Source of the DNA: a bacterium
GTDB lineage: Bacteria > Omnitrophota > Gorgyraeia > Gygaellales > Profunditerraquicolaceae
Assembly: GCA_037133515.1 (NCBI GenBank)
Contig: JBAXNZ010000001.1
Location: 1 to 28,023 of the forward strand
Length of the DNA stretch: 28,023 nucleotides
Direction of reading: 5' to 3'
In this document: in pieces, positions 678 to 22,387 of the stretch
How the letters are laid out: every line of letters starts with the position of its first letter
Numbering within the stretch: position 1 is the stretch's first letter
Notes under the pieces: generated by a model
The model's database searches: none
What the model was told of the DNA's origin: nothing
What the model saw: the letters and a program-made list of their open reading frames with translations, nothing else
Program-made: the position numbers and the translations under genes

Positions 678-1122
678 CTAACCAACCTTCTAAAAAATCT
701 AGCGTCTTAGAAACCTCTTCGCTTAAAATATCAGAAAAGACAATCGTCTTAGGTTGAATAATTAAAATAATTATATCGGCCTTTATACTGCTTTTCAAGT
801 AATTAATGGTTAAGGTGATAGAGGCATTATGCGTAGAGAAGAAGTTTACCGTACGTAGCTCATCAGCCTCAATGACCCTGTACTCACCCGGTGAGCCTCC
901 GAAATCAGCAGCATCCAAGATTAAGATATTATCGGGATTTTCTTTTATGATTTTTTCTAGATAATTCTCAGGGGTGGGGCCGGAATCAAAGACCTTAAAG
1001 GAGACTTTGTCTTTGATGCGGTTGGCTAATATAGAGCCTGCGCCGTCGTCGCTACGCAGGGTATTTCCTATACCCAAGATGATAACTTTTCCGCTTAAAT
1101 GCGCTTTAAGGTGAGAGAGCAT
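652..1122 (-). CDS. hycI: [NiFe]-hydrogenase maturation endopeptidase (HycI family)
   Basis: VIILGIGNTLRSDDGAG, GPTPENY, ILILDAADFGGSPGE and FSTHN are the HycI/HybD peptidase motifs. The window also encodes a large subunit with a cleavable C-terminal extension. Confidence 0.92.
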   Translation of the reverse strand: MLSHLKAHLSGKVIILGIGNTLRSDDGAGSILANRIKDKVSFKVFDSGPTPENYLEKIIKENPDNILILDAADFGGSPGEYRVIEADELRTVNFFSTHNASITLTINYLKSSIKADIIILIIQPKTIVFSDILSEEVSKTLDFLEGWLDAADKKEG

Positions 1123-8027: not shown

Positions 8028-8033
8028 AGCCCT

Positions 8034-8645
8034 TTATGACTTTAAAACTGCCTCTCTGCGGCAACGCGGACAAAGTACTTTGATGCGGTCTGAACGTAGG
8101 AGCTCTGACTCACGGAGTTTAAGAGAATCCTCCCTTGAGGCAAGATTCAGGGCATTCAAATAAAATAGCATGAGCGAGGCGTTCGAGAAACACAAGGCCC
8201 CAAGCCTCTTGGCCACCCATAATATCTGGTCTTTGGGCGCTATGATATCCAGGCAACAGTCGCAAAGGGCAATTTCTTTCTCGATAGATTCAAAGAGCGC
8301 TGCGTGCTCTTCGGTCGTGCTCATCTCAAAATCCTGCGAAAGCACTATCCCTTTAGAGGTCGGACAGTTCGCCTGGCACTGGCCGCAGCAGATACACTTA
8401 TCCCAATGCACAACCAGGGTCCTCTTGGCCTTGCCTGACCTCACCTCATCCTTGAATTCTATCGCGCCTGCCGGGCAAACCTGAAAACAGGCAGTGCAGC
8501 CGATACAATCCTCTTTATGAAAATGCGGGGCGCCGCGGAATCTTTCATACGGCTTATGCGGCTCGTAAGGGAACCTGCTGGTATAGGGACCTTTAAATAT
8601 TGCCCTTATCGCCTCTTTTAATTCGCGTATTTTAGGATAACGCAT
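8034..8645 (-). CDS. mbhN: 2x[4Fe-4S] subunit of the membrane hydrogenase (MbhN/HycF/NuoI-like)
   Basis: Start moved to ATG 8645 (GAGGA SD 8 nt upstream; MRYPK...KGPYTSRFP...RFRGAP). Contains CIGCTACFQVCP and CICCGQCQANCP, plus a C-terminal CDCC...CPRC pair. Confidence 0.88.
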   Translation of the reverse strand: MRYPKIRELKEAIRAIFKGPYTSRFPYEPHKPYERFRGAPHFHKEDCIGCTACFQVCPAGAIEFKDEVRSGKAKRTLVVHWDKCICCGQCQANCPTSKGIVLSQDFEMSTTEEHAALFESIEKEIALCDCCLDIIAPKDQILWVAKRLGALCFSNASLMLFYLNALNLASREDSLKLRESELLRSDRIKVLCPRCRREAVLKS

Positions 8646-8967
8646 CTTTATCATCCTCGTATTTATCGCATACTGATTTATCCCACAGTTTGACGCCAGA
8701 GCGGTGCGTGGCGCGCGCCAAGGCATGCGCAGAAACAGGAGAGGTAAGCAAAAGAAATACGATACAGATAAGCGCCTTGACGCCGGCTGCGGTAAACCCG
8801 AATTTTATCAATACGCCAAAGAGTATGCCGCAGGTGCCCAAGGTCACGCATTTGGTAGAGGCCTGCAGGCGGTTATAGATATCCGGCATGCGCACCAGCC
8901 CTATGCAGCCGAATAGGTCAAAGGTAATGCCTACTATAATAAATATAAGCGCTATGATCTCATGCAT
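8632..8967 (-). CDS. mnhG: Na+/H+ antiporter subunit G (MrpG/MnhG/MbhC)
   Basis: Start moved to ATG 8967. GCIGLVRMPDIYNRLQASTKCVTLG and LLLTSPVSAHALARA. Confidence 0.92.
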   Translation of the reverse strand: MHEIIALIFIIVGITFDLFGCIGLVRMPDIYNRLQASTKCVTLGTCGILFGVLIKFGFTAAGVKALICIVFLLLTSPVSAHALARATHRSGVKLWDKSVCDKYEDDKDALS

Positions 8968-9298
8968 CGAAACTCTTCCCCTCAATAAATTTAGCCAGGG
9001 CCAGTGCACCGATAAAACTCTGCAGGCCCCAGGCAATAGCGATATCCATATACCAATCTCGGCCGGTATAGACTGCCAGGATAGCGCAGAAACCTATAAC
9101 CAGTATGCCTAATACATCCGTAGCTATGGCCCTATCTGCAGGAGTAGGGCCCTTAAGTATCCTAAAGAGTGAAAGTAAAAATGAAATTAAAAGATAGAGC
9201 ATGAGCTTAGCCTGTAGGTCTACTTTAAGATAGGCAAATATAAAAATAATTGCCCCTGCCAGAAAGATAAAACCTAACAGCCAGCGAAAAAACCTCAT
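8960..9298 (-). CDS. mnhF: Na+/H+ antiporter subunit F (MrpF/MnhF/MbhB)
   Basis: RILKGPTPADRAIATDVLG and YMDIAIAWGLQSFIGALALAKF. Confidence 0.92.
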   Translation of the reverse strand: MRFFRWLLGFIFLAGAIIFIFAYLKVDLQAKLMLYLLISFLLSLFRILKGPTPADRAIATDVLGILVIGFCAILAVYTGRDWYMDIAIAWGLQSFIGALALAKFIEGKSFDA

Positions 9299-9789
9299 TC
9301 GAATACCTCTTTCAATATCTTTTCAAACTTCGAGACTATTATCTTAGATGCCTCCTCTATATCCTGGGTCTTGACGTCTATCCAGTGTATATATAGGCAG
9401 CCGTTCTCCTGATCGATATCTACGGACAATGTCCCGGGGGTAAGGGTGATAAAATTAGCCAGGAAGGCAAGGCCGGTCTCGGTCTTCAATATAGTCTTTA
9501 CCTTGACAATCCCCGGGTTAATAGGCAAGCGCGGATGCAGGACCCTTGAGGCAACATCTATATTTGACTTAAAACACTCCCAGGCAAAAACCAGGATATA
9601 GTATATAAACCAAACATAGCGGTGCGGGTGGAACCATTTCTTAGGGTAGCTGGTAAACATATCTCCCATCATAAGAGCGACTATTAAAGAAACAAGCGCC
9701 CCGATTAGGATATGCTGCCAATCAAGGCTAAAGCAAAGCAAGGTCCATATTAAAAGAGAGATCACAAATGTGACTACCCTGGAATACAT
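9295..9789 (-). CDS. mnhE: Na+/H+ antiporter subunit E (MrpE/MnhE/MbhA)
   Basis: SNIDVASRVLHP..PINPGIV, LANFITLTPGTLSVDI, LYIHWID. Confidence 0.94.
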   Translation of the reverse strand: MYSRVVTFVISLLIWTLLCFSLDWQHILIGALVSLIVALMMGDMFTSYPKKWFHPHRYVWFIYYILVFAWECFKSNIDVASRVLHPRLPINPGIVKVKTILKTETGLAFLANFITLTPGTLSVDIDQENGCLYIHWIDVKTQDIEEASKIIVSKFEKILKEVFE

Positions 9790-9794
9790 CTTTT

Positions 9795-11270
9795 CTAACC
9801 TCCTAAAATCAACCTGGCGTAATCCCTACCTTCAAGCAATACTGCTGCCGCAGGTTTTATTATCATATCGACAAAGGGGACAAAAAATAACCCTACCAGG
9901 ATGCAAAGTAAGGCCAAGGCCAGCATAGAAAACCTCATAAAAACAGGGGCTTCTTTAACCGTTAAAGCCGCCTGCTCTATTTTACGCATAAAGGCATACT
10001 TCTGCACTTTTAAAAATGAGGCTAAAGTCACCATAGCTACCAGTATACAGACTACTGCGCCGAAGATATTATTCGCCTGGAAGGCAGCGATGATGATCAT
10101 AAGCTTACTCCAGAAACCGCAGAAAGGCGGTATCCCGGCAATAGAAAAAGAGGCGACTAAAGAGGTAGCGCTAGTTACAGGCATAGACTGATAAAGCCCT
10201 CCCAGCTTCTCTAGCCTTCTTGTCCCTGTAGAATACTCAACAGCCCCTGAGTTTAAGAAAAGCAGGGATTTGAAAAGTGAGTGATTAAAAAGATGGAATA
10301 GCCCTGCCGTAATCCCCAGGGGTGTGCCCAGGCCTATTGCAAATACCACATATCCGATCTGGCTTATGGAATGGTAAGCCAGGAGCCTCTTAAAGTCCCA
10401 CTGTCCTATGGCAAGCAATACACCCGCAGCCATTGAGAGTATCCCCAGCCAGATAAATATCTTAGAGACTATTAGGCTAAAGCCGATAATATTAAAGATC
10501 ACCCTGATTAATGCATAAACACCCACTATCTTGATCACTACTCCGGAGAGCATCGCTGACATAGGAGCCGGAGCAGCAGGATGCGCATCCGGAAGCCAGG
10601 CATGCAAAGGCACCAGGGCAGTCTTTAAACCGAAACCCATAATAAAAAGTGCTGTCGAGTAAAGTATGAGATTCGACGATGCTGCGGCATTTAGCGAACG
10701 GCTGATATCTGCCATATTTAAAGTAGAGACGCATCCCAAGAGCATACCGATAGCCAGAAGTATCAGGGTATCGGCAACGCTACCTAAAACCAGATATTTA
10801 AAAGCAGCCTCTAACTCTTCTGCCTCTGTGCCAAAGGCAATCAAAGAATAACAGGCAATAGAGGTTATCTCAAGGAATACAAAAAGATTAAACAGGTCTC
10901 CGCTGATTACGATCCCGTTTAATCCCGCTAATAAAAGACAGAATAAAGTATAGTATAGGTAAGTAGAGGTATATCTTTTGATGTAATCTACGGAATAAAC
11001 CAGGGCTAGAAAACCTATCAGGTTCACTACTAATAACATGAGCACCGTAAGGCCATCTAGCACCATACAGATACCAAAAGGCGGCGGCCATCCTCCCACA
11101 TGATAAATCTTAAGGCCTCCCCTTAACCAATAAATGCTGCAGATGGAAAAGAACAAAAGCAGGCCTGCCCCCAGGTTTGCCACGAGCGCAGCTAACCCTT
11201 GGCGAAACTTAGCTAATATAGGTATCAAAAACGCAGCCCCTAGAGGTATAATCACAAAAACAGGTAACAT
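9795..11270 (-). CDS. mnhD: Antiporter-like membrane subunit, MrpD/MbhH type
   Basis: FVFLEITS (TM5 Glu134), GLKTALVPLHAWLPDAHPAAPAPMSAMLSGVVIK, KRLLAYHSISQIGY, GFWSK. Confidence 0.92.
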   Translation of the reverse strand: MLPVFVIIPLGAAFLIPILAKFRQGLAALVANLGAGLLLFFSICSIYWLRGGLKIYHVGGWPPPFGICMVLDGLTVLMLLVVNLIGFLALVYSVDYIKRYTSTYLYYTLFCLLLAGLNGIVISGDLFNLFVFLEITSIACYSLIAFGTEAEELEAAFKYLVLGSVADTLILLAIGMLLGCVSTLNMADISRSLNAAASSNLILYSTALFIMGFGLKTALVPLHAWLPDAHPAAPAPMSAMLSGVVIKIVGVYALIRVIFNIIGFSLIVSKIFIWLGILSMAAGVLLAIGQWDFKRLLAYHSISQIGYVVFAIGLGTPLGITAGLFHLFNHSLFKSLLFLNSGAVEYSTGTRRLEKLGGLYQSMPVTSATSLVASFSIAGIPPFCGFWSKLMIIIAAFQANNIFGAVVCILVAMVTLASFLKVQKYAFMRKIEQAALTVKEAPVFMRFSMLALALLCILVGLFFVPFVDMIIKPAAAVLLEGRDYARLILGG

Positions 11271-11274
11271 ATTC

Positions 11275-11613
11275 TTAGCCCTTCAATCTGCGTATCTCGT
11301 TAATATCAAAGGTGCGGTATTTTTCGTAGATGCGCACCGTAATCGCAACCATCAGCGCCGTAACACCCAGGCCGATAACAATAGAGGTAAGAATGAGCGC
11401 CTGCGGCAGGGGATCGACAAAATTAGTAATAGGGGTATCCTTACTTAATATCGGAGCCTCCCCTCCTTTAGTGTAACCTAAAAGAATAAAAAAGAGGTTT
11501 ACGGCATATTCAGTAATGCCTAGCCCTACTATTTTCTTAATCAGGTTCTTTTTAACTATAAGGCAATACAGGCCTATGGCAAATAGAATCAGGCAAAGGA
11601 TATAAAGACTCAT
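11275..11613 (-). CDS. mnhC: Na+/H+ antiporter subunit C (MrpC/MnhC/MbhG)
   Basis: KKNLIKKIVGL, APIL, VDPLPQALILTSIVIG. Confidence 0.94.
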   Translation of the reverse strand: MSLYILCLILFAIGLYCLIVKKNLIKKIVGLGITEYAVNLFFILLGYTKGGEAPILSKDTPITNFVDPLPQALILTSIVIGLGVTALMVAITVRIYEKYRTFDINEIRRLKG

Positions 11614-12074
11614 CTGTTTTCTCCTTTTTTCTCTTCTGGAGGCAGCCTTATAAAAGCCAGGGCAAGAAATATAGCAAATAACCCTGCTCCCACTTTTAAG
11701 AATATAGCGATATTACAGAAAATAATTATCCCGGAGCTGAATAAGTCAAAGGGCCTGCCCTTGGGTAGAATATTCAAAAAGAAGTAGCTGCCGAATATAA
11801 GGCCTAGCAGCGCCAAACCCCAGAACATAAGCCCGCCCAAAGATTCAATGATTGAGACGGTTGCCTGGCTCATCTTCTTTAAGGCAACCTCCTTGCCGAA
11901 GGCAAGCACCAGGTGAATAAAAGAAAGCGCGATGATCACCCCTCCGGCAAAGCCTCCTCCGGGAGTAAGGTGGCCGTGCAGGACGATATAGACGCCAAAT
12001 AAGAAAATAAGGCTTACTGTAATCTTGGTAATGCGCTTAACTATCAAAGACATCCCGCTATTATCTTCTTTCAC
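11610..12074 (-). CDS. mnhB: Na+/H+ antiporter subunit B (MrpB/MnhB/MbhF)
   Basis: YIVLHGHLTPGGGFAGGVI. Confidence 0.93.
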   Translation of the reverse strand: MKEDNSGMSLIVKRITKITVSLIFLFGVYIVLHGHLTPGGGFAGGVIIALSFIHLVLAFGKEVALKKMSQATVSIIESLGGLMFWGLALLGLIFGSYFFLNILPKGRPFDLFSSGIIIFCNIAIFLKVGAGLFAIFLALAFIRLPPEEKKGENR

Positions 12075-12589
12075 GTTTTTCTTCCTTTTATCCTTAATAC
12101 CGCCAACACGCCTATTACCGAAGTAAATAATATGGTGGCCTCGCCTAACGTATCATAACCCCTGAAATCCAGGATAACGGCAGCCACGATATTGGCCGCT
12201 CCGGTTTTGGCTAATGCCTCTTTTATATACAGAGAGCCCATCTTCATTATAGGAAAACCAAAAACAGGAAGCTGGGCCAGGGCCTTGTAACTGAAAAATA
12301 AAAAAAGGGCAGCAAATACGAGCGCAAAGACAAAATAACCTATCCTGGTGGCTATCCTCTCCCTGGGCAGGCTTACGCCCACAGTAGCCCTGATCAGTAT
12401 AATCAAAGATAATATCTCAACTACCAGCTGCGTAATCGCAAGGTCCGGCGCGCGAAGCAGGAGGAACTCCAAGGTAAGCCCTATGCCCACGGCACCCAGG
12501 GCAATGACGCTAGAAAGCATATCCTCAAGCTCCATAGCTACCACTGCCCCGATAATCATCAATATTAATATTACATGTAACTCTATCAT
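12071..12589 (-). CDS. Fused MbhD (DUF4040)-MbhE subunit, equivalent to the C-terminal part of MrpA
   Basis: Start moved to ATG 12589, 1 nt after the upstream stop. LRAPDLAITQLVVE (DUF4040) and GAANIVAAVILDFRGYDTLGEATILF (MbhE). Confidence 0.88.
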   Translation of the reverse strand: MIELHVILILMIIGAVVAMELEDMLSSVIALGAVGIGLTLEFLLLRAPDLAITQLVVEILSLIILIRATVGVSLPRERIATRIGYFVFALVFAALFLFFSYKALAQLPVFGFPIMKMGSLYIKEALAKTGAANIVAAVILDFRGYDTLGEATILFTSVIGVLAVLRIKGRKT

Positions 12590-12590
12590 C

Positions 12591-14495
12591 TCATCTAACC
12601 ATAAGAATAATAAACATAACCAGAAGCCCAAGCAAGCTCCAGACCAGATATAAATCCAGGACCCCGGAGTGCAGTTTACGCAATAGCCAGCTTAAACCCA
12701 GAACCAGATAGCCGGTGAGGCTAGTCAACAGGTTTATAAAACGGTCAACCAGAATAAATAAAAGGTAAGCCAGAAACCTAAGAGAGCCGTTCAAAAGGTT
12801 ATATAAGTCCAAGGCCTCAAACTGCATAAGCGAATATAGCTTTTTTATAGGGGGGAGTTCCTCTATGGTGCGATAAAAATGCGTGGCAGGAAAGTCCGGG
12901 CCAAATACCGGCTCCTCTCCTCCGATAAAAAAGTTATCCGTTCTTAATTTTTTAGATTTCAAGCCCTGCCAGAAGATAAGGCCCAATAAAAGGCCTACCC
13001 CCAGGAGCCCGGCTGCAAGCTGGCTATTCCATGCGCCGATAAAAATAATCTCAAGGCCCAGCCAGGGCTGAATAAAATATTTTAAGAACAACCCCGGCAT
13101 AATCCCTAATAAAAGGCATAGGCCCGCGAGCACCAGAACAGAAAACCTCATCCCCGAAGATACCTCCCCTGTATTTTTCTTATCTTGGGAACTCTCCTGG
13201 CCTAAGAATACCGCATGGATAAACTTGATAAAACTGGCCAGGGTCAGGGCACTTCCGAACATCGCAGCTATTAAGGCAAAGATATAAATGAAACGCATAA
13301 CCGCGCCCTCTGAATTAAAAAGCCCAAGCAACACGCCCTGATAAAGCATCCACTTGGAGGCAAATCCGTTAAAAGGAGGGACACCTGAGATGGATAAGGC
13401 AAAACAGACCCCACAGGCAAAGGTTATAGGCATATAAGCAGCCAGGCCGCCTAATTTGTCCAGGTCAAAGGTCTTTCTCTTTTCTCCGACGGAGCCGGCG
13501 GTCAGGAATAATCCGCTTTTGTAGATAGCGTTATTGATCATATGAAAGATCCCGGCAGCTATCCCTAGGCTGGTGCCTGTGCCGAATCCTAAGACCATAT
13601 AACCTACCTGGCTTACCGCGTGAAAAGAGAGCAGCTTCCTGGCATCATGCTGTATAAGAGCCAACATCACCGCAAAGATTATAGTTAAACTGCCTAAGAC
13701 TAATAAAATTACCGCAATTACTTTATTAAAAACAAAAAAGTCTACTGAGATCCTGGCTAAAAGATATATGCCCAGCAATTTATCTAAAGAAGCGGGTAAT
13801 ATCGCCATTGCCGGTATTGGCGCCTCCTCTGCTGCCTGGGGTATCCAGGTGTGAAACGGCGCGCATCCGGCCTTAGCCAGGGCGCCTATAAGCATAAGGA
13901 TAAAGGCGAGCCAACCCAGCGGCTGATTCAAAAGCAACTTTGCCGTCTGATTATCAGGCATAATAGTGCTTCCTGTAACAAAGACATAAAAGCATACCCC
14001 TAAGATTAAGGAAAAATCAGCCATACCTACGATAGAGAGTGCCTTTTTGGCGCTTGAGCCTGAGCCTAAACTTAAAAAGGCATAAAGAAGTACCAGGGTC
14101 GCTCCCCAGGAGAAGATAAAAAGGATGAAATCTGCCGATAAGCAGACCAGATTAGAGAAGGCAATCAGAGAAAGCAGATAAAGAAAATAGGGCCTTCTGT
14201 TTTTCACTTCTGTATAATCTGCGGAATAAAGACAGACCAATAATCCGAAGAGATTGCTAAAAACCAGTATAAGCCCGGAGAGCTTATTTAAACCTAACAA
14301 CAGACTATAGTCTCCTATCAGGTTTAGGCTAAGGCCTTGCGCTGGTTTTATAAATAAAAGGACTGAACTCGCCAGAGATATACTTAAGATTAATAGCGCG
14401 AGCCCCTTCCTTAGGCCTTCTGATTTAAAAACCATAAGCAAAAAGCCTGAGCATATCGGCAATATGGTTAAGAAAAATAAATAGCGCGTCATCAT
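12591..14495 (-). CDS. Long antiporter-like membrane subunit (NuoL/HyfB/MbxH'-like) with C-terminal extension
   Basis: AKAGCAPFHTWIPQAAEEAP, ASLDKLLGIY, RKLLSFHAVSQVGY, PPFNGFASKW. A hydrophilic, probably amphipathic stretch precedes a final TM. The TM5 Glu position is Gly131. Confidence 0.88.
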   Translation of the reverse strand: MMTRYLFFLTILPICSGFLLMVFKSEGLRKGLALLILSISLASSVLLFIKPAQGLSLNLIGDYSLLLGLNKLSGLILVFSNLFGLLVCLYSADYTEVKNRRPYFLYLLSLIAFSNLVCLSADFILFIFSWGATLVLLYAFLSLGSGSSAKKALSIVGMADFSLILGVCFYVFVTGSTIMPDNQTAKLLLNQPLGWLAFILMLIGALAKAGCAPFHTWIPQAAEEAPIPAMAILPASLDKLLGIYLLARISVDFFVFNKVIAVILLVLGSLTIIFAVMLALIQHDARKLLSFHAVSQVGYMVLGFGTGTSLGIAAGIFHMINNAIYKSGLFLTAGSVGEKRKTFDLDKLGGLAAYMPITFACGVCFALSISGVPPFNGFASKWMLYQGVLLGLFNSEGAVMRFIYIFALIAAMFGSALTLASFIKFIHAVFLGQESSQDKKNTGEVSSGMRFSVLVLAGLCLLLGIMPGLFLKYFIQPWLGLEIIFIGAWNSQLAAGLLGVGLLLGLIFWQGLKSKKLRTDNFFIGGEEPVFGPDFPATHFYRTIEELPPIKKLYSLMQFEALDLYNLLNGSLRFLAYLLFILVDRFINLLTSLTGYLVLGLSWLLRKLHSGVLDLYLVWSLLGLLVMFIILMVR

Positions 14496-15886: not shown

Positions 15887-16503
15887 TATTTTATCTTTAA
15901 GAGGCCCCTGGCTATCTTTTTAGCATGATAATAAACCGCGGCAGTAAAATCGAGCATATTCAAGAACATATTGCAGGCCATTGGGCTACAGATGCCGTCG
16001 AGCAGCCTCTGATTATGCCTGCGGCGGTACTCATCCACCATCTTATCAATATGACCTTCCCCTTTAAGCACCTCTTTAACCAGGCCGGGCTTATCTTTAT
16101 CCAGGGCCTCAGTTATTTCTTTAAGGGAAGACTCGGTTTTGCGATAGAGCTCTTCATACTCCTTTACCGCATCGTCGCTAAAAAGCAGTTTTTCTTCTAT
16201 CTTTATCTGGATACGCTCCAGCATATCCTTGCAATAATCGCCGATAAGCTCAAGGTCTGCCACCACATCGGCATAGATCAATACCTTGGTCTTATCAGTT
16301 TTAACTTTTGTAGCGCGGCCAAACTCTACGAGTTCGATAGTCAGCTCCTTCTCTAAATCATTGAGCTTAACCTCCTTCTCCAATACCCCTGGAATTATCT
16401 GGAGGTCATGTTCCATAAATGCAGCGTGCGTATCCTGCCACATCTTAAGGCTTAACTTGGACATTGCCGCGATTCGTGATTTTATATTTCTAAGCTCCGC
16501 CAT
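15886..16503 (-). CDS. Stand-alone PhoU-fold protein resembling the cytoplasmic C-terminal domain of Na+/Pi cotransporter (NptA/YjbB-type) proteins
   Basis: Soluble, helical, with two repeats. EKEVKLNDLEKEL, ADLELIGDYC (cf. DLERIGD), LLFSDDAVKE, IDKMVDEYRRRHNQRLLDGICS (cf. HxxRLxxGxC), FLNMLD...YHAKKIA. Confidence 0.75.
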   Translation of the reverse strand: MAELRNIKSRIAAMSKLSLKMWQDTHAAFMEHDLQIIPGVLEKEVKLNDLEKELTIELVEFGRATKVKTDKTKVLIYADVVADLELIGDYCKDMLERIQIKIEEKLLFSDDAVKEYEELYRKTESSLKEITEALDKDKPGLVKEVLKGEGHIDKMVDEYRRRHNQRLLDGICSPMACNMFLNMLDFTAAVYYHAKKIARGLLKIK

Positions 16504-17695
16504 CTTTAAACCTCTCTCTCAACTTATTGGTCTTCTCCTGGGATAATTTAATCAGGTCCCAGCCGTTCATTATCTTTTTATTATCCGGCTTGTTGATCAC
16601 CGCTACCCTCTCGGTGCAGCAGTAGCAAGGGTCAACCGCAGCCAGGGTAATGGTAGCATCAGAGATAGTCCCTCCTACTGCCCCGACTTTATTAGAAGCC
16701 ACATTCATAAAGCTGGGCGCGCGTATCTTATGCCTTATCGGCCGGTTTGTCCCGTCGCTTTTTATATAATGGATGCATTCTCCCCTTGGCGCCTCGACCC
16801 TTCCTATCCCCTCACCAACAGGGATATCTTTAATATCGGCATCAATAGCTCCGCGGGGAAGCTTATCCAGGCACTGACGGATAATGCGTATGGACTCATA
16901 CATCTCAAGGATCCTCACCACGGTCTTGGCAAAGATATCGCCGTCTTTTTCCATAATTATATTCCAATCCAGGTTGCTATAAGCGCCGTAAGGATCATCC
17001 CGCCGCACGTCTATATTTATGCCGGAGGCCCTGGCAGTCGGGCCGACCACGCAGTAGTCAATTGCCTGCTCTTTAGTTAAAACGCCCACGCCCACCAGCC
17101 TTGCCTTTATTACCGGGTCATCCATAACCGCGCCCTTAAACATATCCACTGCCGGAACTAGCTCATCCAGCGTCTTTTTTAAGACCGATATATCTGCGTC
17201 TTTTATATCGCGTCTGATCCCTCCTATCTTTAACATCCCGTAGTTATTCCTATTGCCGGTGATCATCTCAAAACAATCTAGCACAGGCTCGCGGTATTTC
17301 CAGGCCCACATCCAAACCGTATTGTAACCGATAAAATGCCCTGCCAGGCCCAGCCATAACAAGTGGCTGTGTATGCGCTGCAGCTCATCTACTATGGTGC
17401 GTATATATACGGCGCGCTCCGGCACCAGCTTCTCCTCACCCCCTAATATATCCTCTACTGCCAGCACATAGGCATAGGGGTGGCTGGAAGAACAGATCCC
17501 GCAGATGCGCTCCACAAGAAAAGCGACTTGGTCAAAGTGCTTTGACTCTGAGAGCTTTTCAATCCCGCGGTGGTTGTAACCGATGATGATATCGATATCC
17601 ACCACGCGCTCTCCCTCAACATAAAGCTGAAAGAACTCCGGTTCTTCTTGTAAAGGGTGATACGGACCTATAGGTACGATTACTCTATGGCTCAT
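16490..17695 (-). CDS. mbhL: Group 4 [NiFe]-hydrogenase large subunit (MbhL/HycE/EchE-like)
   Basis: GPYHPLQEEP, GYNHRGIEK, L1 ERICGICSSSH, EAPRGE, IRAPSF, L2 DPCYCCTER, followed by a 38-aa C-terminal extension. Confidence 0.93.
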   Translation of the reverse strand: MSHRVIVPIGPYHPLQEEPEFFQLYVEGERVVDIDIIIGYNHRGIEKLSESKHFDQVAFLVERICGICSSSHPYAYVLAVEDILGGEEKLVPERAVYIRTIVDELQRIHSHLLWLGLAGHFIGYNTVWMWAWKYREPVLDCFEMITGNRNNYGMLKIGGIRRDIKDADISVLKKTLDELVPAVDMFKGAVMDDPVIKARLVGVGVLTKEQAIDYCVVGPTARASGINIDVRRDDPYGAYSNLDWNIIMEKDGDIFAKTVVRILEMYESIRIIRQCLDKLPRGAIDADIKDIPVGEGIGRVEAPRGECIHYIKSDGTNRPIRHKIRAPSFMNVASNKVGAVGGTISDATITLAAVDPCYCCTERVAVINKPDNKKIMNGWDLIKLSQEKTNKLRERFKDGGA

Positions 17696-18120
17696 TTGCC
17701 TTGCCTTAGAGGATAGTCGCCTTGCGGCCAGTCCTCTGCTAAAAGCAACCTTTTTAGATTAGGATGGTTCTTAAAATTTATACCCAGCATCTCCCAGATC
17801 TCCCGCTCAACCCACTCTGCGCCGGCGAATATAGGCGCCAGTGAATCCACCTCTGGATGTAATTTGTCAGAAAGCATAACGCGCAGGGAATAAACCGCCC
17901 CGCTTGCGTCATCGCTAAAGTGATAGATTATTTCAAAGGCTAAAGGCGTATCTATGCCTGAAGCAGTAGAAAACCTAAGCCCTAATTCTTTGAATAAAAA
18001 CCTGGAGACTTCGAATATATCTTCCTTTTTAACCGTAATATATATGCGCCTGGGGGAGTGTTCTTCCCAGGAGACGATCCTTACCCCTAAACCTTCTTTT
18101 ATTTTCTCTATCATATCCAT
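17692..18120 (-). CDS. mbhK: NuoC-like subunit (MbhK/EchD)
   Basis: FEIIYHFS, AEWVEREIWEMLGINFKNHPNLKRLLLAEDWPQGDYPLR. Confidence 0.9.
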   Translation of the reverse strand: MDMIEKIKEGLGVRIVSWEEHSPRRIYITVKKEDIFEVSRFLFKELGLRFSTASGIDTPLAFEIIYHFSDDASGAVYSLRVMLSDKLHPEVDSLAPIFAGAEWVEREIWEMLGINFKNHPNLKRLLLAEDWPQGDYPLRQGK

Positions 18121-18123
18121 GGT

Positions 18124-18549
18124 TTATTTTTTATTTTTGATCTTATCCGTAAGTTTGGCAATCCCGGCAATTATCGCCTCCGGCTTAGGAGGGCATCCCG
18201 GTATATAAACATCCACCGGTATTATGCTGTCCAAGGGGCCTGCTACATTATAGCTATCCCGGAACATATTCTGCGACACCGCACAGATCCCGCAGGCAAC
18301 CACCAGGCAGGGTTTAGCTGCCTGTTCATAGATTTTTTTAAGGAGCGGGACTGCCTTGCGGCTCATGGCGCCGGTGACCAATAGCGCATCCGCATGCCGC
18401 ACAGACCCGATTAATTGTATACCGAACCTCTCTATGTCAAACCTGGGGGTGAAGCAATCCAATATTTCTATATCACAGTTATTGCAGGAACCAGCGCTCA
18501 CATGAAAAACCCAGATAGACTTGGTAAGCGCCTTAAGCCTTAAATCCAT
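18124..18549 (-). CDS. mbhJ: Group 4 hydrogenase small subunit (MbhJ/HycG/NuoB-like), 1x[4Fe-4S]
   Basis: GSCNNCDIE (hydrogenase-type CxxC, not the tandem CC of NuoB), RFDIERFG, ACGIC, VDVYIPGCPPKPE. Confidence 0.93.
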   Translation of the reverse strand: MDLRLKALTKSIWVFHVSAGSCNNCDIEILDCFTPRFDIERFGIQLIGSVRHADALLVTGAMSRKAVPLLKKIYEQAAKPCLVVACGICAVSQNMFRDSYNVAGPLDSIIPVDVYIPGCPPKPEAIIAGIAKLTDKIKNKK

Positions 18550-18550
18550 T

Positions 18551-19462
18551 CTATAATCCTCCTGCTGCCAAGGCCACGCTAAGTATTGCCAATAATGTAG
18601 CTGGCCCCCAGAAAAATTTAAGCGCCTGGTCGATGCGCAGCCGCGGATTGGTATTCTTGATCAATATGATCAATACCAGTATCGCTATAAACTTTAAAAT
18701 AATAAAGAGGGGGCTGGTATCCTTTCCCAGAAAAAGGAAAATCACCAGCAACGGCATTGTATAAAGTAAGCTTGCCTTTGTCAATTTAAATACTGCCAAA
18801 GGCAAGCCTGAATATTCTATCATTGTCCCGGCCATGATCTCCTGCTCTGCCTCTGCGATATCAAAGGGGTTCATCCCTAATTTTGCCTGCATGCAGAATA
18901 ATACTACTATAAAGGCAAGGAAACCGGACCAAGAGAATATATTCGATCCTGCACTCGCCTGGCTGCTCAGTATTTGAGCCAGCTGTATTGAGCCTTTTGC
19001 CCTAATTGCCACCGCGATTATTGCCAGGATAAAGGGGAGCTCATAAGAAAGCACCAGCTTGATCTCGCGGCTTGCGCCCACCGAAGCCAGGGGGTTCCTG
19101 GAAGAAGAAGCGCCCAATATTACGGCGATAGCCGGAATGACCAACAGGTATAAGAGCACGATAAGGTCGGCGCGGAAAAGCTCCGAATGAAAAAAAAGAT
19201 TCTTTCCCAGTATTGTAGCTATCAGGACCGCGCTTAATAGCCCCAGGTAAGGAGATAACAAAAAGGCACCTCCGGAGCCCTTGGGGACTATGACTTCCTT
19301 GCCCAGTAATTTTACGATATCTACGAAGTTCTGATACCAGGGCGGGCCTACCCGCCACTGGATGCGGGCAGTGACCTTGCGGTCTATCCAGCCTGCCAGG
19401 AGCCCGGCCGAGACGGTAAACAAAAAACCAGGGAATACGAGATAATCAAATAATGGCATCAT
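18551..19462 (-). CDS. mbhM: NuoH-like membrane anchor (MbhM/HycD/EchB)
   Basis: Start moved to ATG 19462 (ATGA overlap with the upstream stop). WIDRKVTARIQWRVGPP, GASREIKLVLSYE, PFDIAEAEQEIMAGTMIEYSG, PRLRIDQ. Confidence 0.92.
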   Translation of the reverse strand: MMPLFDYLVFPGFLFTVSAGLLAGWIDRKVTARIQWRVGPPWYQNFVDIVKLLGKEVIVPKGSGGAFLLSPYLGLLSAVLIATILGKNLFFHSELFRADLIVLLYLLVIPAIAVILGASSSRNPLASVGASREIKLVLSYELPFILAIIAVAIRAKGSIQLAQILSSQASAGSNIFSWSGFLAFIVVLFCMQAKLGMNPFDIAEAEQEIMAGTMIEYSGLPLAVFKLTKASLLYTMPLLVIFLFLGKDTSPLFIILKFIAILVLIILIKNTNPRLRIDQALKFFWGPATLLAILSVALAAGGL

Positions 19463-19950
19463 CTTTTCTTTGGTTGAAAATCCTCCCTTACCCATTTACT
19501 GGAATGCACTGCCAGATGCTCTCCCACAAAATAAATATTATTCTCTGTGCTCTCCTCTATCTCCCGTAAATCCACTGCCTTATGCGTGCAGCTGGTTATA
19601 CATTTAGGAAGCTGGCCTGTTTTACCTATGCAATAATCGCATTTTGAGTCAAGATAGGGAATAAAATCAGCAAAGATAACCCCAAAAGGGCAGGCAAGGG
19701 TACAAGATTTACAACTGGTGCAACGCATCTTATAGCGTTTTAGGTGGCCATCAGAGCCACGTTCAAGGGCATTATGGTAACAGGAATTAACGCAAGGAGC
19801 CTCTTCGCAATGCCGGCAGATAATGGCAAAGGTTGAGTATTCGCGTAAACCCGCTACCCCGTTATTCTGCGGATGATAGAAATACTCACAGCAACTTATA
19901 CACTCTTTACAGCTGCTGCAGATATCCAGGTCAACAAACAGGCGTTTCAT
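19459..19950 (-). CDS. Polyferredoxin, 4x[4Fe-4S] HycB/CooF/HydN-like electron-transfer subunit
   Basis: CSSCKECISCC, CRHCEEAPCVNSC, CTSCKSCTLACPFG, KCDYC...CITSC: the DmsB/HycB-family Cys pattern. Confidence 0.88.
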   Translation of the reverse strand: MKRLFVDLDICSSCKECISCCEYFYHPQNNGVAGLREYSTFAIICRHCEEAPCVNSCYHNALERGSDGHLKRYKMRCTSCKSCTLACPFGVIFADFIPYLDSKCDYCIGKTGQLPKCITSCTHKAVDLREIEESTENNIYFVGEHLAVHSSKWVREDFQPKKR

Positions 19951-19954
19951 ATTT

Positions 19955-20770
19955 CTAGTCCCATATATCGGGTATATCTTTTAATTCCCTGTAAGTAAAG
20001 ACCGGGCCGTCTTTGCAGGCATAAAACTTTCCGATGCGGCAGTGCCCGCATTTACCCAGGCCGCATGACATGTTTTTTTCCATTGAGAGGTATATCTCCT
20101 GTGGCTTAAATCCCAGGTCCATTAATTTTAATACTCCGAATTTCATCATTATCGGCGGGCCGCAGACTATTGCCACTGCCTTCTTTAAATTAAGGGGCAG
20201 GTCTTTTAGTATTGTAGTAACTAGCCCCACATTCCCTTTCCAACTAGGGTCTCCTACATCAACTGTGGTGACGATATCCACCTTTTTTTTCTTAGACCAT
20301 TGCGGTATGGCAGACTTATAAATGATATCCGCTGAGCTACGCGCGCCATAGCGTAATAATACCTTATTGTATTTATCTATATCGGAAAAAAGGCTAAACA
20401 ATAACGAGCGTAGCGGCGCCAGGCCCACCCCTCCGCCTAATATCAAGATATCCTTACCCTCAAAACTCTCCAGTGGGTAACCCTTACCATAAGGCCCGCG
20501 TATGCCAACGGTTGTTCCTTTAGAAGCCTGATGCAATAAAGAGGTGACCCTACCCGCCTTCATTATAGTTACCTCCATGACCTCGCTAACATTCGGGTCA
20601 GAGGAAGGGGTAAAGGGCGCCTCCCCTATGCCAGGTATGGAGAGCTCGATGAACTGCCCGGTTTTAAAAGAGAACTGCTCCTTTGGCCTGATTACGAAGG
20701 TCTTTATATTAGAGGTCTCACTGATGACATCTTCGATAGTCGCCTCTATAGGCAGATAGATATTTTTCAT
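19955..20770 (-). CDS. FAD/NAD(P)-binding [2Fe-2S] oxidoreductase, AsrB/HydG(gamma)/FlxA-like
   Basis: FNR fold: GQFIEL, GEAPFTPSS, GPYGKGYP, GGGVGLAPLRS, YGAR, CGPPIMM, MEKNMSCGLGKCGHC...CKDGPVF. Confidence 0.92.
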   Translation of the reverse strand: MKNIYLPIEATIEDVISETSNIKTFVIRPKEQFSFKTGQFIELSIPGIGEAPFTPSSDPNVSEVMEVTIMKAGRVTSLLHQASKGTTVGIRGPYGKGYPLESFEGKDILILGGGVGLAPLRSLLFSLFSDIDKYNKVLLRYGARSSADIIYKSAIPQWSKKKKVDIVTTVDVGDPSWKGNVGLVTTILKDLPLNLKKAVAIVCGPPIMMKFGVLKLMDLGFKPQEIYLSMEKNMSCGLGKCGHCRIGKFYACKDGPVFTYRELKDIPDIWD

Positions 20771-21828
20771 AATTTAGCGTGCAATTTCTTATCCAGGTCT
20801 TTTAGGACTTCTCTTATATCAATTTTTCCCGGGCAGACCTCGATACACCTGCCGCAGCCGCAACAGGCAGGCAGGCCCAGATTATCAATAAAAAAGTCAA
20901 ACTTCTTCATAAATCTGTTTCTTAACCTCTGGGTCCTGGTCTTTAAAGGATTTGCGCCTCCTGCAACCCTGGCATAATTAGCATACAGGCAGGAATCCCA
21001 GAGCCTTACTTTTTCATTTTGATTACCCTTTCTTCTGTCTGAGAGCAGAAAACAATGACAGGTATCGCAAACAAGATTGCACCCTCCGCATTCAACGCAG
21101 GTAAGCATGAATTCGCTCCAGGTAGAGAGGCCATACCCCTGCTTAACCAGGCCCTGGAGGCTATCTTTTACCGGGATGTTTTGAGGCAGGAGGTGCTTTT
21201 GAAGCCGCTCGATCAGGTTATCCCTTTTTATGGAGCGGCCGGCAATCTGCGTATCTTTGGCAGGGATAAAATACTGCTGGTAGGCCTTAAGCAGGTCTTG
21301 GCCCTTTGCTGAACCTACCTCTACCAGATAACCTTCATTTAGAGGAGAAAGGTTTAAGTCAAAACCCTCGCTCGGATAAGGAAGGATATCCAGGGCCAGG
21401 CAGAAACATACTTTTTTAAAGGCCGTACAATCAGAAGAAATAATAACGGTATTCTCTCTTCTAAGGCGGTATAAAGAATCTACCTCCTGGCCTTCCATGA
21501 ATACGAAATCCTGTATCTTGTGGCCGGCGAGGTCGCAGCTTTTTACCCCCACAATAACGGCCTTTTTAACCTGGGTTATTTTTTTGTCCTCTGTGAAATA
21601 CCCGCCTACCAAATCTTGCGGCCAGGTAAAAAAAGACTTTAGCGGTTCGACTACGCGGTAAGGATTAAAGGTAAGAACTTGCGGGTATATGAATTTTTGA
21701 TAGGAGTATTCAGTTTCTTTGGGGGGAGTATTCTCTTTGGCCTGGGGGACAAATACGCTGAGGTCTTTCTGGAGTTGATTTAGAAAATCTTCTAACCTAG
21801 CAGTTTCGATATAATATATTCTGTGCAT
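20767..21828 (-). CDS. 4Fe-4S protein, AsrA/HydB(beta)/FlxB-like
   Basis: GVKSCDL, CFC, CVECGGCNLVCDTCHCF, RLWDSC, RLRNRFMKKF, CCGCGRCIEVCP. The start is uncertain (ATG 21828 or TTG 21867). Confidence 0.9.
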   Translation of the reverse strand: MHRIYYIETARLEDFLNQLQKDLSVFVPQAKENTPPKETEYSYQKFIYPQVLTFNPYRVVEPLKSFFTWPQDLVGGYFTEDKKITQVKKAVIVGVKSCDLAGHKIQDFVFMEGQEVDSLYRLRRENTVIISSDCTAFKKVCFCLALDILPYPSEGFDLNLSPLNEGYLVEVGSAKGQDLLKAYQQYFIPAKDTQIAGRSIKRDNLIERLQKHLLPQNIPVKDSLQGLVKQGYGLSTWSEFMLTCVECGGCNLVCDTCHCFLLSDRRKGNQNEKVRLWDSCLYANYARVAGGANPLKTRTQRLRNRFMKKFDFFIDNLGLPACCGCGRCIEVCPGKIDIREVLKDLDKKLHAKL

Positions 21829-21896
21829 ATTGAGGAAAACGTTCGGGCGGGAATATTTAGAGCCCAAAACGACAGATTATTATTTTTAGAGTAGAT

Positions 21897-21925
21897 ACTA
21901 TAATGCAATGCGCAAGGATTGTCAA
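21897..21925 (-). promoter_or_regulatory. sigma70-type promoter of the hydrogenase operon
   Basis: Minus strand TTGACA (21925-21920), exactly 17 nt, then TATAGT (21902-21897), in the only sizeable gap between yqeY and the operon. Confidence 0.8.
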
Positions 21926-21931
21926 GTGAAA

Positions 21932-22387
21932 CTATAATGCGGGCCCAGAGAGCCGTTCTTTTACCAGGTCGCTGACCAGTTTACTATCCGCGCCAGGCCC
22001 CACCTTAACACTCACCTCTTTCATGACCTTGCCCATATCTTTCATCCCTGTTGCCCCAAGACTAAGAACCGCTTCTTCAATTATCTGTTTTACCTGCTCA
22101 TCAGAGAGTTGGGGGGGAAGGTAGCTTTTTAATATTTTTAATTCCGCCTCTTCCTTGACGGAGAGATCTTCTCTATTTCCTTTCTTAAACTGCTCTACGG
22201 AATCCTGATGCTGTTTAATCTGTTTCTTGATTACAACGAAGACCTCGTCATCTTCAAGCGCCTTCTTTTTCTTGGCGATGGCTACATTCATAAGCTCGGC
22301 GCGCAGGAAACTCAAAGTAGAGCTTCTTATCTTATCCTGGCTCTTCATCGCCTCTTTATAATCATTAAGGATCTTCTCTTCTAACAT
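21932..22387 (-). CDS. yqeY: GatB/YqeY domain protein
   Basis: DYKEAMKSQDK, IKKQIKQHQDSVEQFKKGNREDL, ILKSYLPPQLS, MKDMGKVM. Confidence 0.94.
   Translation of the reverse strand: MLEEKILNDYKEAMKSQDKIRSSTLSFLRAELMNVAIAKKKKALEDDEVFVVIKKQIKQHQDSVEQFKKGNREDLSVKEEAELKILKSYLPPQLSDEQVKQIIEEAVLSLGATGMKDMGKVMKEVSVKVGPGADSKLVSDLVKERLSGPAL

What the first reader, a model, noticed from the sequence alone, without database searches (positions are those of the whole stretch)
8034..21925. Candidate NAD(P)H-linked, ion-translocating Mbh/Mrp [NiFe]-hydrogenase: a sulfhydrogenase-type diaphorase module on a group 4 membrane hydrogenase
Seen: after a TTGACA-17-TATAGT promoter, the first genes are AsrA/HydB-like, AsrB/HydG-like (FAD/NAD(P), [2Fe-2S]) and a HycB/CooF-like polyferredoxin. 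They abut or overlap (GTGA/ATGA overlaps, gaps of 5 nt or less) and run straight into mbhM-J-K-L and the Mrp membrane arm. There is no AsrC, no group 3b HydD/HydA and no HdrABC in the window, so the usual partners of this flavin module are missing here. Established: MBH takes electrons from ferredoxin, and other group 4 enzymes use formate or CO dehydrogenase input modules through HycB/CooF-type subunits; HydBG and FlxAB modules exchange electrons with NAD(P)(H). Inference: this is a group 4 complex whose input module is a pyridine-nucleotide diaphorase. NAD(P)H (about -320 mV) to H2 (about -414 mV) is uphill at standard state. The complex might therefore use the ion gradient to drive H2 release from NAD(P)H, work only at very low pH2 (syntrophy or life on a host), or interconvert H2, NAD(P)H and ferredoxin. 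This is the best candidate for an undescribed system in the window, but I cannot confirm it is unpublished.
Basis: partly seen in the sequence, partly recalled or inferred. Interest (0 to 1): 0.82.

Follow-up and report, generated by a model that had tools for sequence, protein, structure and literature searches.

The report
Hun-type membrane hydrogenase with NAD(P)H module
This is an intact 18-gene operon of an uncultured Omnitrophota bacterium for a membrane-bound, ion-pumping nickel-iron hydrogenase with an NAD(P)H-type flavoprotein module at its electron-entry end; genome papers named this operon type "Hun" in 2021, but nobody has tested what feeds it electrons.

Summary
Eighteen tightly packed minus-strand genes (21828 to 8034) follow a TTGACA-17-TATAGT promoter. 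In order they are HydB/AsrA-like, HydG/AsrB-like, HycB-like, MbhM-J-K-L with intact NiFe cysteine motifs, a PhoU-domain gene, an Mrp arm and a NuoI/MbhN-like ferredoxin.

The gene order holds in almost every related locus I fetched: 125 of 127 have HycB and 97 of 99 have MbhL. These loci span about 20 bacterial and archaeal phyla. About a quarter of 401 sampled Omnitrophota species carry the module.

The flavoprotein keeps its FAD, NAD(P) and [2Fe-2S] motifs. Near-complete relatives have no other hydrogenase and no AsrC. One relative carries a complete group 3b operon directly beside this operon, so the module is not a stray half of another enzyme.

The architecture is not new. Glass et al. 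2021 named it the "Hun" supercomplex and listed Omnitrophica among its hosts. Two other genome papers also noted it, and this scan has met it many times on other DNA.

Glass et al. assumed ferredoxin as the donor. The NAD(P)H reading is better supported by sequence, and a Rex operator sits upstream in 41 of 148 relatives (not in this window), but it remains untested.

Verdict: a new member of a known kind, with an open donor question.

The parts
21897..21925 (-). Sigma-70-type promoter TTGACA-17-TATAGT in the only intergenic gap upstream of the operon. No Rex operator lies in the leader of this copy.
   Evidence: 11 of 12 matches. The TTGACA box is kept in other genera. The best Rex-box match here has 5 mismatches.
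20767..21828 (-). HunA: HydB/AsrA-like iron-sulfur subunit, 353 aa from the ATG at 21828, with 15 invariant Cys.
   Evidence: Pfam Fer4_22. Best solved relative is P. furiosus sulfhydrogenase 1 beta, 9NEZ_B, E 4e-37. NCBIfam ShyB, HydB and AsrA hits are all below their cut-offs. Invariant Cys are listed in A1.
19955..20770 (-). HunB: HydG/AsrB-like flavoprotein with FAD, an NAD(P)-binding fold and a [2Fe-2S] site. It overlaps HunA by 4 nt.
   Evidence: Pfam. Best solved relative is SHI gamma, 9NEZ_C, E 3.5e-57. Invariant PFTPSS, RGPYG, GGGVGLAPL, CGPPxMM and C-x4-C-x2-C-x7-C. The motifs are kept in 163-166 of 167 family members.
19459..19950 (-). HunC: HycB/CooF-type polyferredoxin with 16 invariant Cys, enough for four [4Fe-4S] clusters.
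   Evidence: Pfam Fer4_11. Solved relatives are HDCR HycB4/HycB3 (7QV7) and FHL HycB (7Z0S_B). Invariant Cys are in A3.
18551..19495 (-). HunD: NuoH/MbhM/HycD-like membrane subunit.
   Evidence: Pfam NADHdh, E 1e-63.
18124..18549 (-). HunE: NuoB/MbhJ-like hydrogenase small subunit carrying the Cys for the proximal [4Fe-4S] cluster.
   Evidence: Pfam Oxidored_q6. Sequence has SCNNC, CGIC and GCPP.
17692..18120 (-). HunF: NuoC/MbhK-like subunit.
   Evidence: Pfam Complex1_30kDa.
16490..17695 (-). HunG: [NiFe] large subunit (NuoD/MbhL-like) with L1 RICGICSSSH, L2 DPCYCCTER and a C-terminal tail for protease processing.
   Evidence: Best solved relatives are MBH 6CFW_L (1e-86) and FHL HycE 7Z0S_E (5e-78). 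Both motifs are kept in 124 of 124 orthologues.
15886..16503 (-). PhoU-domain soluble protein. It is an extra gene not in the 16-gene Hun description, present in only part of the family.
   Evidence: Pfam PhoU. Present in the window's family and some others; absent in L019, L020, L022, L023 and L025.
14492..15886 (-). Extra antiporter-like (NuoL/MrpA-N-type) subunit. This third pump subunit is present only in a subclade.
   Evidence: Pfam Proton_antipo_M and Proton_antipo_N. An orthologue is found only in L015/L044, L036, L045 and L048 among close relatives.
8632..14495 (-). Mrp/Mnh-type membrane arm. Its genes are: MrpA-like (12591-14495), MbhD/E (12071-12631), MnhB (11610-12074), MrpC (11275-11613), MrpD (9795-11270), MrpE (9295-9789), MrpF (8960-9298) and MrpG (8632-9036).
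   Evidence: Pfam and NCBIfam. Conserved order in relatives.
8034..8645 (-). HunP: NuoI/MbhN/HycF-like 2x[4Fe-4S] subunit. It has a C-terminal extension carrying four further invariant Cys.
   Evidence: Pfam. Solved relatives are 7Z0S_F (1e-16) and 6CFW_N (8e-14). Alignment A4.
652..1122 (-). HycI-type hydrogenase maturation endopeptidase. It lies outside the operon here but directly follows it in relatives.
   Evidence: Pfam HycI. It follows the last subunit in L023 and L025.

Best explanation
The stretch is an Omnitrophota copy of the 'Hun' operon. [quoted passage not shown]

Its electron-entry end carries three extra subunits. HunB is a HydG-like protein with FAD, an NAD(P)-binding fold and a [2Fe-2S] cluster. 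HunA is a HydB-like multi-cluster protein. HunC is a HycB-like protein with four clusters.

Most likely mechanism (inferred, not measured): HunB oxidises NAD(P)H. Electrons then run through HunA, HunC, HunP and HunE to the NiFe site in HunG, where protons are reduced to H2. The membrane arm couples this near-equilibrium reaction to ion movement. At very low H2 pressure the complex could conserve a little energy. At higher H2 pressure the Na+/H+ gradient, made for example by Rnf, would pull H2 release from NAD(P)H. The reverse reaction, H2 to NAD(P)+ with ion export, is equally possible.

Shown here: gene content, cofactor motifs, conserved synteny, lack of alternative partners, and Rex operators in relatives.

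Inferred: subunit contacts, the donor, the direction of the reaction, and the ion coupling.
For: - Domains and cofactor motifs are present.
- HunA and HunB are most like the beta and gamma subunits of the NADPH-linked sulfhydrogenase I, 9NEZ. After the nucleotide-binding strand, HunB shares an AR...D..YK stretch with SHI gamma, where the NAD+-linked PyrK has AS-E.
- NAD(P) and FAD motifs are kept in 163-166 of 167 family members.
- Gene order over 183 non-redundant loci from about 20 phyla: HunB 164/167, HunC 125/127, MbhM 122/127, MbhL 97/99. All 124 large subunits keep both NiFe motifs.
- In G000, G015 (94% complete) and G031 (96%, 2 contigs) this is the only NiFe large subunit. No FeFe hydrogenase and no AsrC are found.
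- G016 has a complete 3b HydB-G-D-A-protease operon directly upstream of its Hun operon, so each enzyme has its own beta/gamma pair.
- A near-perfect Rex operator lies 15-75 nt upstream of HunA in 41 of 148 loci, against none expected.
- hypD often lies within a few kb upstream of HunA.
Against: - No biochemical data exist for any Hun enzyme in the papers I could search.
- The paper that named Hun assumes ferredoxin as the donor. These genomes do make reduced ferredoxin and have Rnf.
- A four-cluster HycB could also accept ferredoxin.
- Rex also controls ferredoxin-dependent hydrogenases in other bacteria (my own knowledge), so a Rex box does not prove direct NADH use.
- This window has no Rex box, and no Rex gene was found in its 74%-complete genome.
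- NAD(P)H to H2 is uphill at standard state.
- About 1 in 9 family members carry a molybdopterin protein between HunB and HunC, so the module may have arisen around another substrate.
Confidence: 0.55

Rival explanations
1. Ferredoxin-only Hun, the published reading. HunABC is just a longer iron-sulfur wire that takes electrons from reduced ferredoxin. The complex then works like MBH (ferredoxin to H2 with ion export), and the nucleotide fold of HunB is structural or regulatory.
For: - Glass et al. propose this, and Williams et al. model the Omnitrophota enzyme this way.
- 2-oxoacid:ferredoxin oxidoreductases are present in all five genomes checked.
- MBH and most group 4 enzymes use ferredoxin or ferredoxin-like inputs (established knowledge).
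Against: - The FAD and NAD(P) motifs of HunB are almost invariant across about 20 phyla, which is hard to explain for a vestigial site.
- The nearest characterised relatives of HunB (SHI gamma, PyrK, NfnA-type proteins) all bind pyridine nucleotides.
- MBH needs no such module to use ferredoxin.
Confidence: 0.2
2. Three-way or confurcating enzyme. The complex takes electrons from both NAD(P)H (through HunB) and reduced ferredoxin (through HunC or HunP). It either sums them on H2 or acts as an ion-coupled ferredoxin:NAD(P)+ oxidoreductase with H2 as an overflow valve.
For: - Both redox carriers are made in these cells.
- In Omnitrophota that carry a single hydrogenase of another type, that hydrogenase is one of the NAD(P)-linked or confurcating classes 3b, 3d or A3.
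- G023 and G028 carry Hun but no RnfC hit over the cut-off, so some other link between ferredoxin and NAD would be needed there.
Against: - No known bifurcating flavin site (NfnB, HdrA, EtfAB or NuoF-type) is in the operon.
- A PyrK/HydG-type FAD is not known to bifurcate (established knowledge).
- Nothing here shows a ferredoxin docking site.
Confidence: 0.17
3. Separate soluble enzyme. HunA, HunB and HunC form a cytoplasmic NAD(P)H:ferredoxin or NAD(P)H:acceptor oxidoreductase that is merely co-transcribed with an ordinary Mbh-Mrp hydrogenase.
For: - Saganbacteria have AsrAB-like genes with a formate dehydrogenase and no hydrogenase, so the module can work apart from a hydrogenase.
- The complex prediction gave no verdict.
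Against: - The three genes are joined to MbhM by overlaps or gaps of a few bases.
- They precede the hydrogenase in 122-125 of 127 loci across about 20 phyla.
- HycB-type proteins dock on the NuoI-like subunit in the solved FHL complex 7Z0S (established knowledge; homology).
Confidence: 0.05

Closest known systems
Hun Ni-Fe hydrogenase-Na+/H+ antiporter supercomplex (hunA-P), Glass et al. 2021, bioRxiv 10.1101/536078
   Same: - Same gene order: AsrA-like, AsrB-like, polyferredoxin, NuoH, NuoB, NuoC, NuoD, Mrp module, NuoI.
- Same unusual large-subunit motif pair, CGIC and CYCC.
- AsrC is missing in both.
- Omnitrophica is listed among the hosts, and an optional molybdopterin protein between HunB and HunC is noted (confirmed here).
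   Different: - This copy has 18 genes rather than 16. The extras are a PhoU-domain gene and a third antiporter-like subunit.
- The paper assumes ferredoxin as donor, whereas the sequence evidence here points to NAD(P)H.
- Hun is known only from genomes.
Pyrococcus furiosus membrane-bound hydrogenase MBH (PDB 6CFW; HydDB group 4d)
   Same: - Best solved match of the large subunit (E 1e-86), and a match for the NuoI-like subunit.
- Same core (MbhJ, K, L, M, N) joined to an Mrp-type arm.
   Different: MBH takes electrons from free ferredoxin at MbhN. It has no flavoprotein, no HydB-like subunit and no HycB-like subunit.
Pyrococcus furiosus soluble sulfhydrogenase I (group 3b; PDB 9NEZ)
   Same: HunA and HunB are most like its beta and gamma subunits (E 4e-37 and 3.5e-57). 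HunB shares the FAD, NAD(P) and [2Fe-2S] motifs of the NADPH-binding gamma subunit.
   Different: - No group 3 small or large subunit (HydD, HydA) is present.
- HunA is only 28-30% and HunB 36-42% identical to the 3b subunits of related Omnitrophota.
- HunA forms a separate clade from those 3b subunits.
E. coli formate hydrogenlyase (group 4a; PDB 7Z0S) and the Fdh-Mfh-Mnh type of Thermococcales
   Same: - A HycB-type four-cluster protein links an input module to the HycF/NuoI-like subunit.
- About 1 in 9 Hun-family loci carry a molybdopterin protein in the matching position.
   Different: This operon has no molybdopterin subunit. Its only recognisable substrate-binding input is the flavoprotein.
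'Mbh-Mrp-oxidoreductase type' and the 'enigmatic' Saganbacteria RX5A group 4 hydrogenase (10.1101/765248; PMC6349859)
   Same: Same combination of AsrA-like, AsrB-like and CooF-like genes with Mrp and a group 4 hydrogenase. The supplement likens the pair to NuoE and NuoF.
   Different: The Saganbacteria version includes the molybdopterin protein. Both papers state that its function is unknown.

Membership tests
[quoted passage not shown] | Large subunit with the N-terminal RxCGxCxxxH and C-terminal DPCxxCxxR/H nickel-iron ligands | tested here: met
   RICGICSSSH and DPCYCCTER are present. Both are kept in 124 of 124 orthologues.
[quoted passage not shown] | NuoB-, NuoC-, NuoH- and NuoI-like partner subunits in the same operon | tested here: met
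   Pfam Oxidored_q6, Complex1_30kDa and NADHdh, plus the NuoI/HycF-like protein.
[quoted passage not shown] | Maturation machinery in the genome (Hyp proteins and an endopeptidase) | tested here: inconclusive
   HycI is in the window. HypE and HypF fragments are in G000, but HypD was not found in this 74%-complete assembly.
Hun supercomplex (Glass et al. 2021) | Gene order hunA-P: AsrA-like, AsrB-like, polyferredoxin, NuoH, NuoB, NuoC, NuoD, Mrp module, NuoI; no AsrC | tested here: met
   against the description read. This copy has two extra genes, PhoU and a third antiporter-like subunit.
Hun supercomplex (Glass et al. 2021) | HunG motif pair CGIC and CYCC | tested here: met
   DPCYCCTER occurs in 108 of 124 orthologues.
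Hun supercomplex (Glass et al. 2021) | HydDB class 4g for the large subunit | not testable with these tools
   HydDB is not available here. Published Omnitrophota and Hun enzymes are classed 4g.
Group 3b sulfhydrogenase (HydBGDA) | Group 3 small and large subunits (HydD, HydA) next to HydB and HydG | tested here: not met
   None in the window or elsewhere in G000. In relatives the 3b operon is a separate unit. HunA and HunB score far below the ShyB/HydB/HydG equivalog cut-offs.
Anaerobic sulfite reductase AsrABC | Sirohaem subunit AsrC, with AsrA and AsrB scoring over the equivalog cut-offs | tested here: not met
   No AsrC match over the cut-off in five genomes. AsrA scores 125 bits against a cut-off of 323, and AsrB 230 against 289.
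Formate hydrogenlyase / Fdh-Mfh-Mnh (groups 4a, 4b) | Molybdopterin formate dehydrogenase subunit in the complex | tested here: not met
   No molybdopterin domain in any operon gene. It is present in only 14 of 127 family loci.
NAD(P)H-linked enzyme (functional claim, not a family) | Intact FAD and pyridine-nucleotide binding motifs in the flavoprotein | tested here: met
   PFTPSS, RGPYG, GGGVGLAPL and CGPPxMM are invariant in 20 orthologues. They are kept in 163-164 of 167 family members.
NAD(P)H-linked enzyme (functional claim, not a family) | Measured NAD(P)H:H+ or H2:NAD(P)+ activity of the complex | not testable with these tools
   No biochemical report was found in ten literature searches.

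The most novel reading that the evidence does not exclude
Hun enzymes, including this one, are true ion-coupled NAD(P)H:H+ oxidoreductases. In effect they would be 'complex I with protons instead of quinone as acceptor', using a flavin input module unrelated to NuoEFG. The ferredoxin-based metabolic models published for Omnitrophota, Cloacimonadota, Atribacterota and others would then need revising. A living intermediate between MBH and complex I logic would also exist in hundreds of anaerobic species.
Probability: 0.45. Interest if true: 0.8.

Novelty: new member of a known kind. Interest (0 to 1): 0.45.

Why it matters
The operon type is widespread. It is in about a quarter of sampled Omnitrophota species and in roughly 20 other phyla of sediment, groundwater and digester anaerobes. 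In several near-complete genomes it is the only hydrogenase.

Published models treat it as a ferredoxin-driven MBH. If it instead exchanges electrons with NAD(P)H, three things would change: the redox balance of these fermenters, their dependence on low H2 (syntrophy or host association), and their energy yield.

It would also show that the complex I family acquired a pyridine-nucleotide input at least twice, from unrelated flavoproteins. A cultured carrier (Kosmotoga) is named in the literature, so the question can be tested directly.

Tried and rejected
- **Complex prediction.** I submitted HunA, HunB, HunC and HunP with HunC as the partner. The result was no verdict: score 0.86, but 0.74 when HunA was replaced by an unrelated protein. 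This is no evidence for or against binding.
- **Rex operator in this window.** None was found with up to 3 mismatches; the best site in the leader has 5. No Rex family hit was found in the 74%-complete genome. The Rex argument therefore rests on relatives only.
- **AsrC as the missing partner.** Only weak ferredoxin-domain hits were found. One 243-aa ORF in G031, 9 kb upstream of the operon, matches the N-terminal half of AsrC (E 1e-22, far below the cut-off). I did not pursue it.
- **Distant-relative scan with a 17-sequence alignment.** It failed for lack of a conserved stretch. Repeating with 8 sequences worked.
- **The look-up of encoding contigs on representative proteins.** Most contigs were under 5 kb and said little. 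One gave the archaeal variant with the molybdopterin protein.
- **RNA evidence.** Three sediment metatranscriptome libraries hold short contigs at 88-100% identity along the operon. Some cross the HunA/HunB, HunB/HunC and MbhK/MbhL junctions. DNA carry-over was not excluded, and contigs do not prove a single transcript, so this is only weak support for expression.
- **NAD versus NADP preference.** I have only a motif resemblance to SHI gamma, which does not decide it.
- **Rooting of the HunA tree.** Rooted on 3b HydB, copies with the molybdopterin protein fall near the base. The outgroup branch is long and joins another long branch, so I do not claim an order of events.

Full report
**What is there**

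The window comes from an uncultured Omnitrophota bacterium. Record titles of near-identical contigs say so. The assembly is 1.10 Mb and 74% complete.

All genes lie on the minus strand. A TTGACA-17-TATAGT site at 21925-21897 is the best promoter-like match of the region and sits in the only upstream gap. After it, 18 genes run from 21828 to 8034 with overlaps of 1-41 nt or gaps of 1-5 nt.

Pfam, NCBIfam and PDB sequence searches name the genes as follows:
- a HydB/AsrA-like iron-sulfur protein;
- a HydG/AsrB-like flavoprotein;
- a HycB-type polyferredoxin;
- NuoH/MbhM, NuoB/MbhJ, NuoC/MbhK and NuoD/MbhL;
- a PhoU-domain protein;
- two antiporter-like subunits;
- MbhD/E, MnhB, MrpC, MrpD, MrpE, MrpF and MrpG;
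- a NuoI/MbhN/HycF-like protein.

The large subunit carries RICGICSSSH and DPCYCCTER, so it is a true [NiFe] hydrogenase and not an Mbx/Ehr-type relic. A HycI-type protease lies 7 kb downstream. The only correction is that the first gene most likely starts at the ATG at 21828, where all orthologues begin.

**Is the flavin module part of the hydrogenase?**

In every Omnitrophota locus fetched with the first gene, the same order follows as far as the contig reaches.

A wider scan brought in loci titled Planctomycetota, Eisenbacteria, Latescibacterota, Krumholzibacteriales, Caldisericota, Atribacterota, Elusimicrobia, Nitrospirota, Cloacimonadota, Fermentibacteraceae, Dehalococcoidia, Actinomycetota, Margulisiibacteriota and WOR-1. 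It also brought in the archaeal Hadarchaeota and Hecatellales.

Over 183 non-redundant loci, the counts among those with enough downstream sequence are:
- HydG-like gene in 164 of 167;
- HycB-like gene in 125 of 127;
- MbhM in 122 of 127;
- MbhL in 97 of 99;
- Mrp genes in 94 of 99.

The few exceptions are mostly loci of a paralogous pair. All 124 full-length large subunits keep both NiFe motifs.

In a sample of 401 Omnitrophota species genomes, about 103 have an orthologue of the first gene. These score 337 bits or more, with a clear gap to 220 bits or less for paralogues.

**Is the module a stray half of another enzyme?**

The evidence says no.
- In G000, in G015 (94% complete) and in G031 (96%, two contigs), this operon holds the only NiFe large subunit. 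There is no FeFe hydrogenase and no AsrC hit over the cut-off.
- The paralogous pair is 28-30% (beta) and 36-42% (gamma) identical to the operon's pair. It belongs to canonical group 3b operons, HydB-G-D-A-protease.
- In G012 that 3b operon sits between yqeY and the MFS gene, exactly where the window has its operon.
- In G016 the 3b operon and the membrane-hydrogenase operon lie in tandem on one strand, each with its own beta/gamma pair.
- In a tree, all 150 best representatives from a 1.84-billion-protein library group with the window's protein, apart from the 3b HydB sequences.

**Cofactors**

Across 20 orthologues the flavoprotein keeps PFTPSS, RGPYG, GGGVGLAPL, CGPPxMM and a C-x4-C-x2-C-x7-C site. 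Across the whole family these motifs are present in 163-166 of 167 sequences.

Its best solved relative is the NADPH-binding gamma subunit of P. furiosus sulfhydrogenase I, 9NEZ_C, at E 3.5e-57. The two share an AR...D..YK stretch after the nucleotide-binding strand, where the NAD+-linked PyrK reads AS-E. This is a hint of NADP(H) preference, not a determination.

The other subunits carry these invariant Cys:
- The HydB-like protein has 15.
- The HycB-like protein has 16, enough for four [4Fe-4S] clusters.
- The NuoI-like protein has the usual eight plus four more in a C-terminal extension.

A continuous iron-sulfur path from the flavin to the NiFe site is therefore plausible, by analogy with FHL (7Z0S). 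My one complex prediction gave no verdict and is not used as evidence.

**Physiological context**

The genomes checked have 2-oxoacid:ferredoxin oxidoreductases. Near-complete relatives also have NfnB/GltD-type genes. G000, G015 and G031 have RnfC. [quoted passage not shown]

A near-perfect Rex operator (TTGTGAA-N4-TTCACAA with at most one mismatch) lies 15-75 nt upstream of the first gene in 41 of 148 non-redundant loci, against none expected in shuffled sequence. Carriers include other genera of the window's own family. This ties expression to the NADH/NAD+ ratio in many carriers.

This window and its genus lack the operator. No Rex gene was found in the incomplete genome.

**Prior description**

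The architecture is published.
- Glass et al. (bioRxiv 10.1101/536078, 2021) describe a 16-gene 'Hun' Ni-Fe hydrogenase-Na+/H+ antiporter supercomplex in Atribacteria, Firmicutes, Omnitrophica, Elusimicrobia, Bacteroidetes and cultured Kosmotoga. Its features are AsrAB-like HunAB, missing AsrC, a HydDB 4g large subunit with the CGIC/CYCC motif pair, and an optional molybdopterin protein between HunB and HunC. They assume ferredoxin as donor.
- Matheus Carnevali et al. (PMC6349859) saw the version with the molybdopterin protein in Saganbacteria. In their supplement they likened the AsrAB-like pair to NuoE and NuoF.
- Meheust et al. (10.1101/765248) call it the 'Mbh-Mrp-oxidoreductase type' and state that its function is unknown.
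- Williams et al. (PMC8542988) list a 'Group 4g, Mrp-linked' enzyme in Omnitrophota and Cloacimonadota and model it with ferredoxin.

Earlier notes of this scan had already met the same operon on many other genomes and pointed me to the Hun paper, which I then read myself. I found no biochemical study in ten searches.

**Conclusion**

The finding is real and intact, but it is a further copy of a described operon type. It differs by two extra genes: the PhoU-domain gene and a third antiporter-like subunit, both confined to subclades.

I put it at about 0.55. Ferredoxin-only, mixed-donor and separate-enzyme readings are the rivals. Only enzyme assays or a structure can decide.

Noticed in passing
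G031, G015 and G028 (relatives); Near-complete Omnitrophota genomes carry the intact operon, with NiFe motifs and in G031 a HycI protease, but no detectable HypD, HypE or HypF. G031 is 96% complete in two contigs. By hand tally, about 24 of 103 operon carriers lack HypD. Across the sample HypD is strongly associated with the operon: 79 of 103 carriers have it, against 53 of 298 non-carriers.
   Followed up: partly
L029 12356-18816 (G012); L023 2952-19620 (G016); window 6828-22387: yqeY | hydrogenase | MFS is a conserved slot. The window holds the Hun-type operon there, G012 holds a canonical group 3b operon, and G016 holds both in tandem. This suggests differential loss and perhaps functional overlap between the two enzymes.
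   Followed up: partly
window 15886-16503: A PhoU-domain gene is wedged between the large subunit and the membrane arm. It is present in the window's family and a few other lineages (for example L177) and absent in many others. It is not part of the published 16-gene Hun set.
   Followed up: partly
window 8034-8260 (C-terminal part of the last subunit): The NuoI/MbhN-like subunit has a C-terminal extension of about 75 aa with four invariant Cys (CxxC...CxxC). Neither HycF (7Z0S_F) nor MbhN (6CFW_N) matches it. It may be an extra metal site.
   Followed up: no
window 22396-23306: A pfkB-family kinase is split into two ORFs that overlap by 4 nt. Pfam profile positions 170-243 fall in one ORF and 251-295 in the other. 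This is a frameshift, a pseudogene or an assembly error.
   Followed up: no
window 6828-8027: An MFS_3 transporter starts 6 nt after the last hydrogenase gene. Orthologues follow the hydrogenase loci of G031 and G012 as well, so it may be co-transcribed.
   Followed up: no
L131 2990-5740; L162 6621-9321 (Planctomycetota): About 1.9 kb lies between the HydG-like and HycB-like genes and is not matched by the archaeal molybdopterin query. It may be a divergent or degenerate molybdopterin-type subunit.
   Followed up: no
L121 1090-3138: In one metagenome contig the HydB-like protein is called as a 682-aa fusion with response-regulator and histidine-kinase ATPase domains. This may be a gene-calling artefact.
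   Followed up: no
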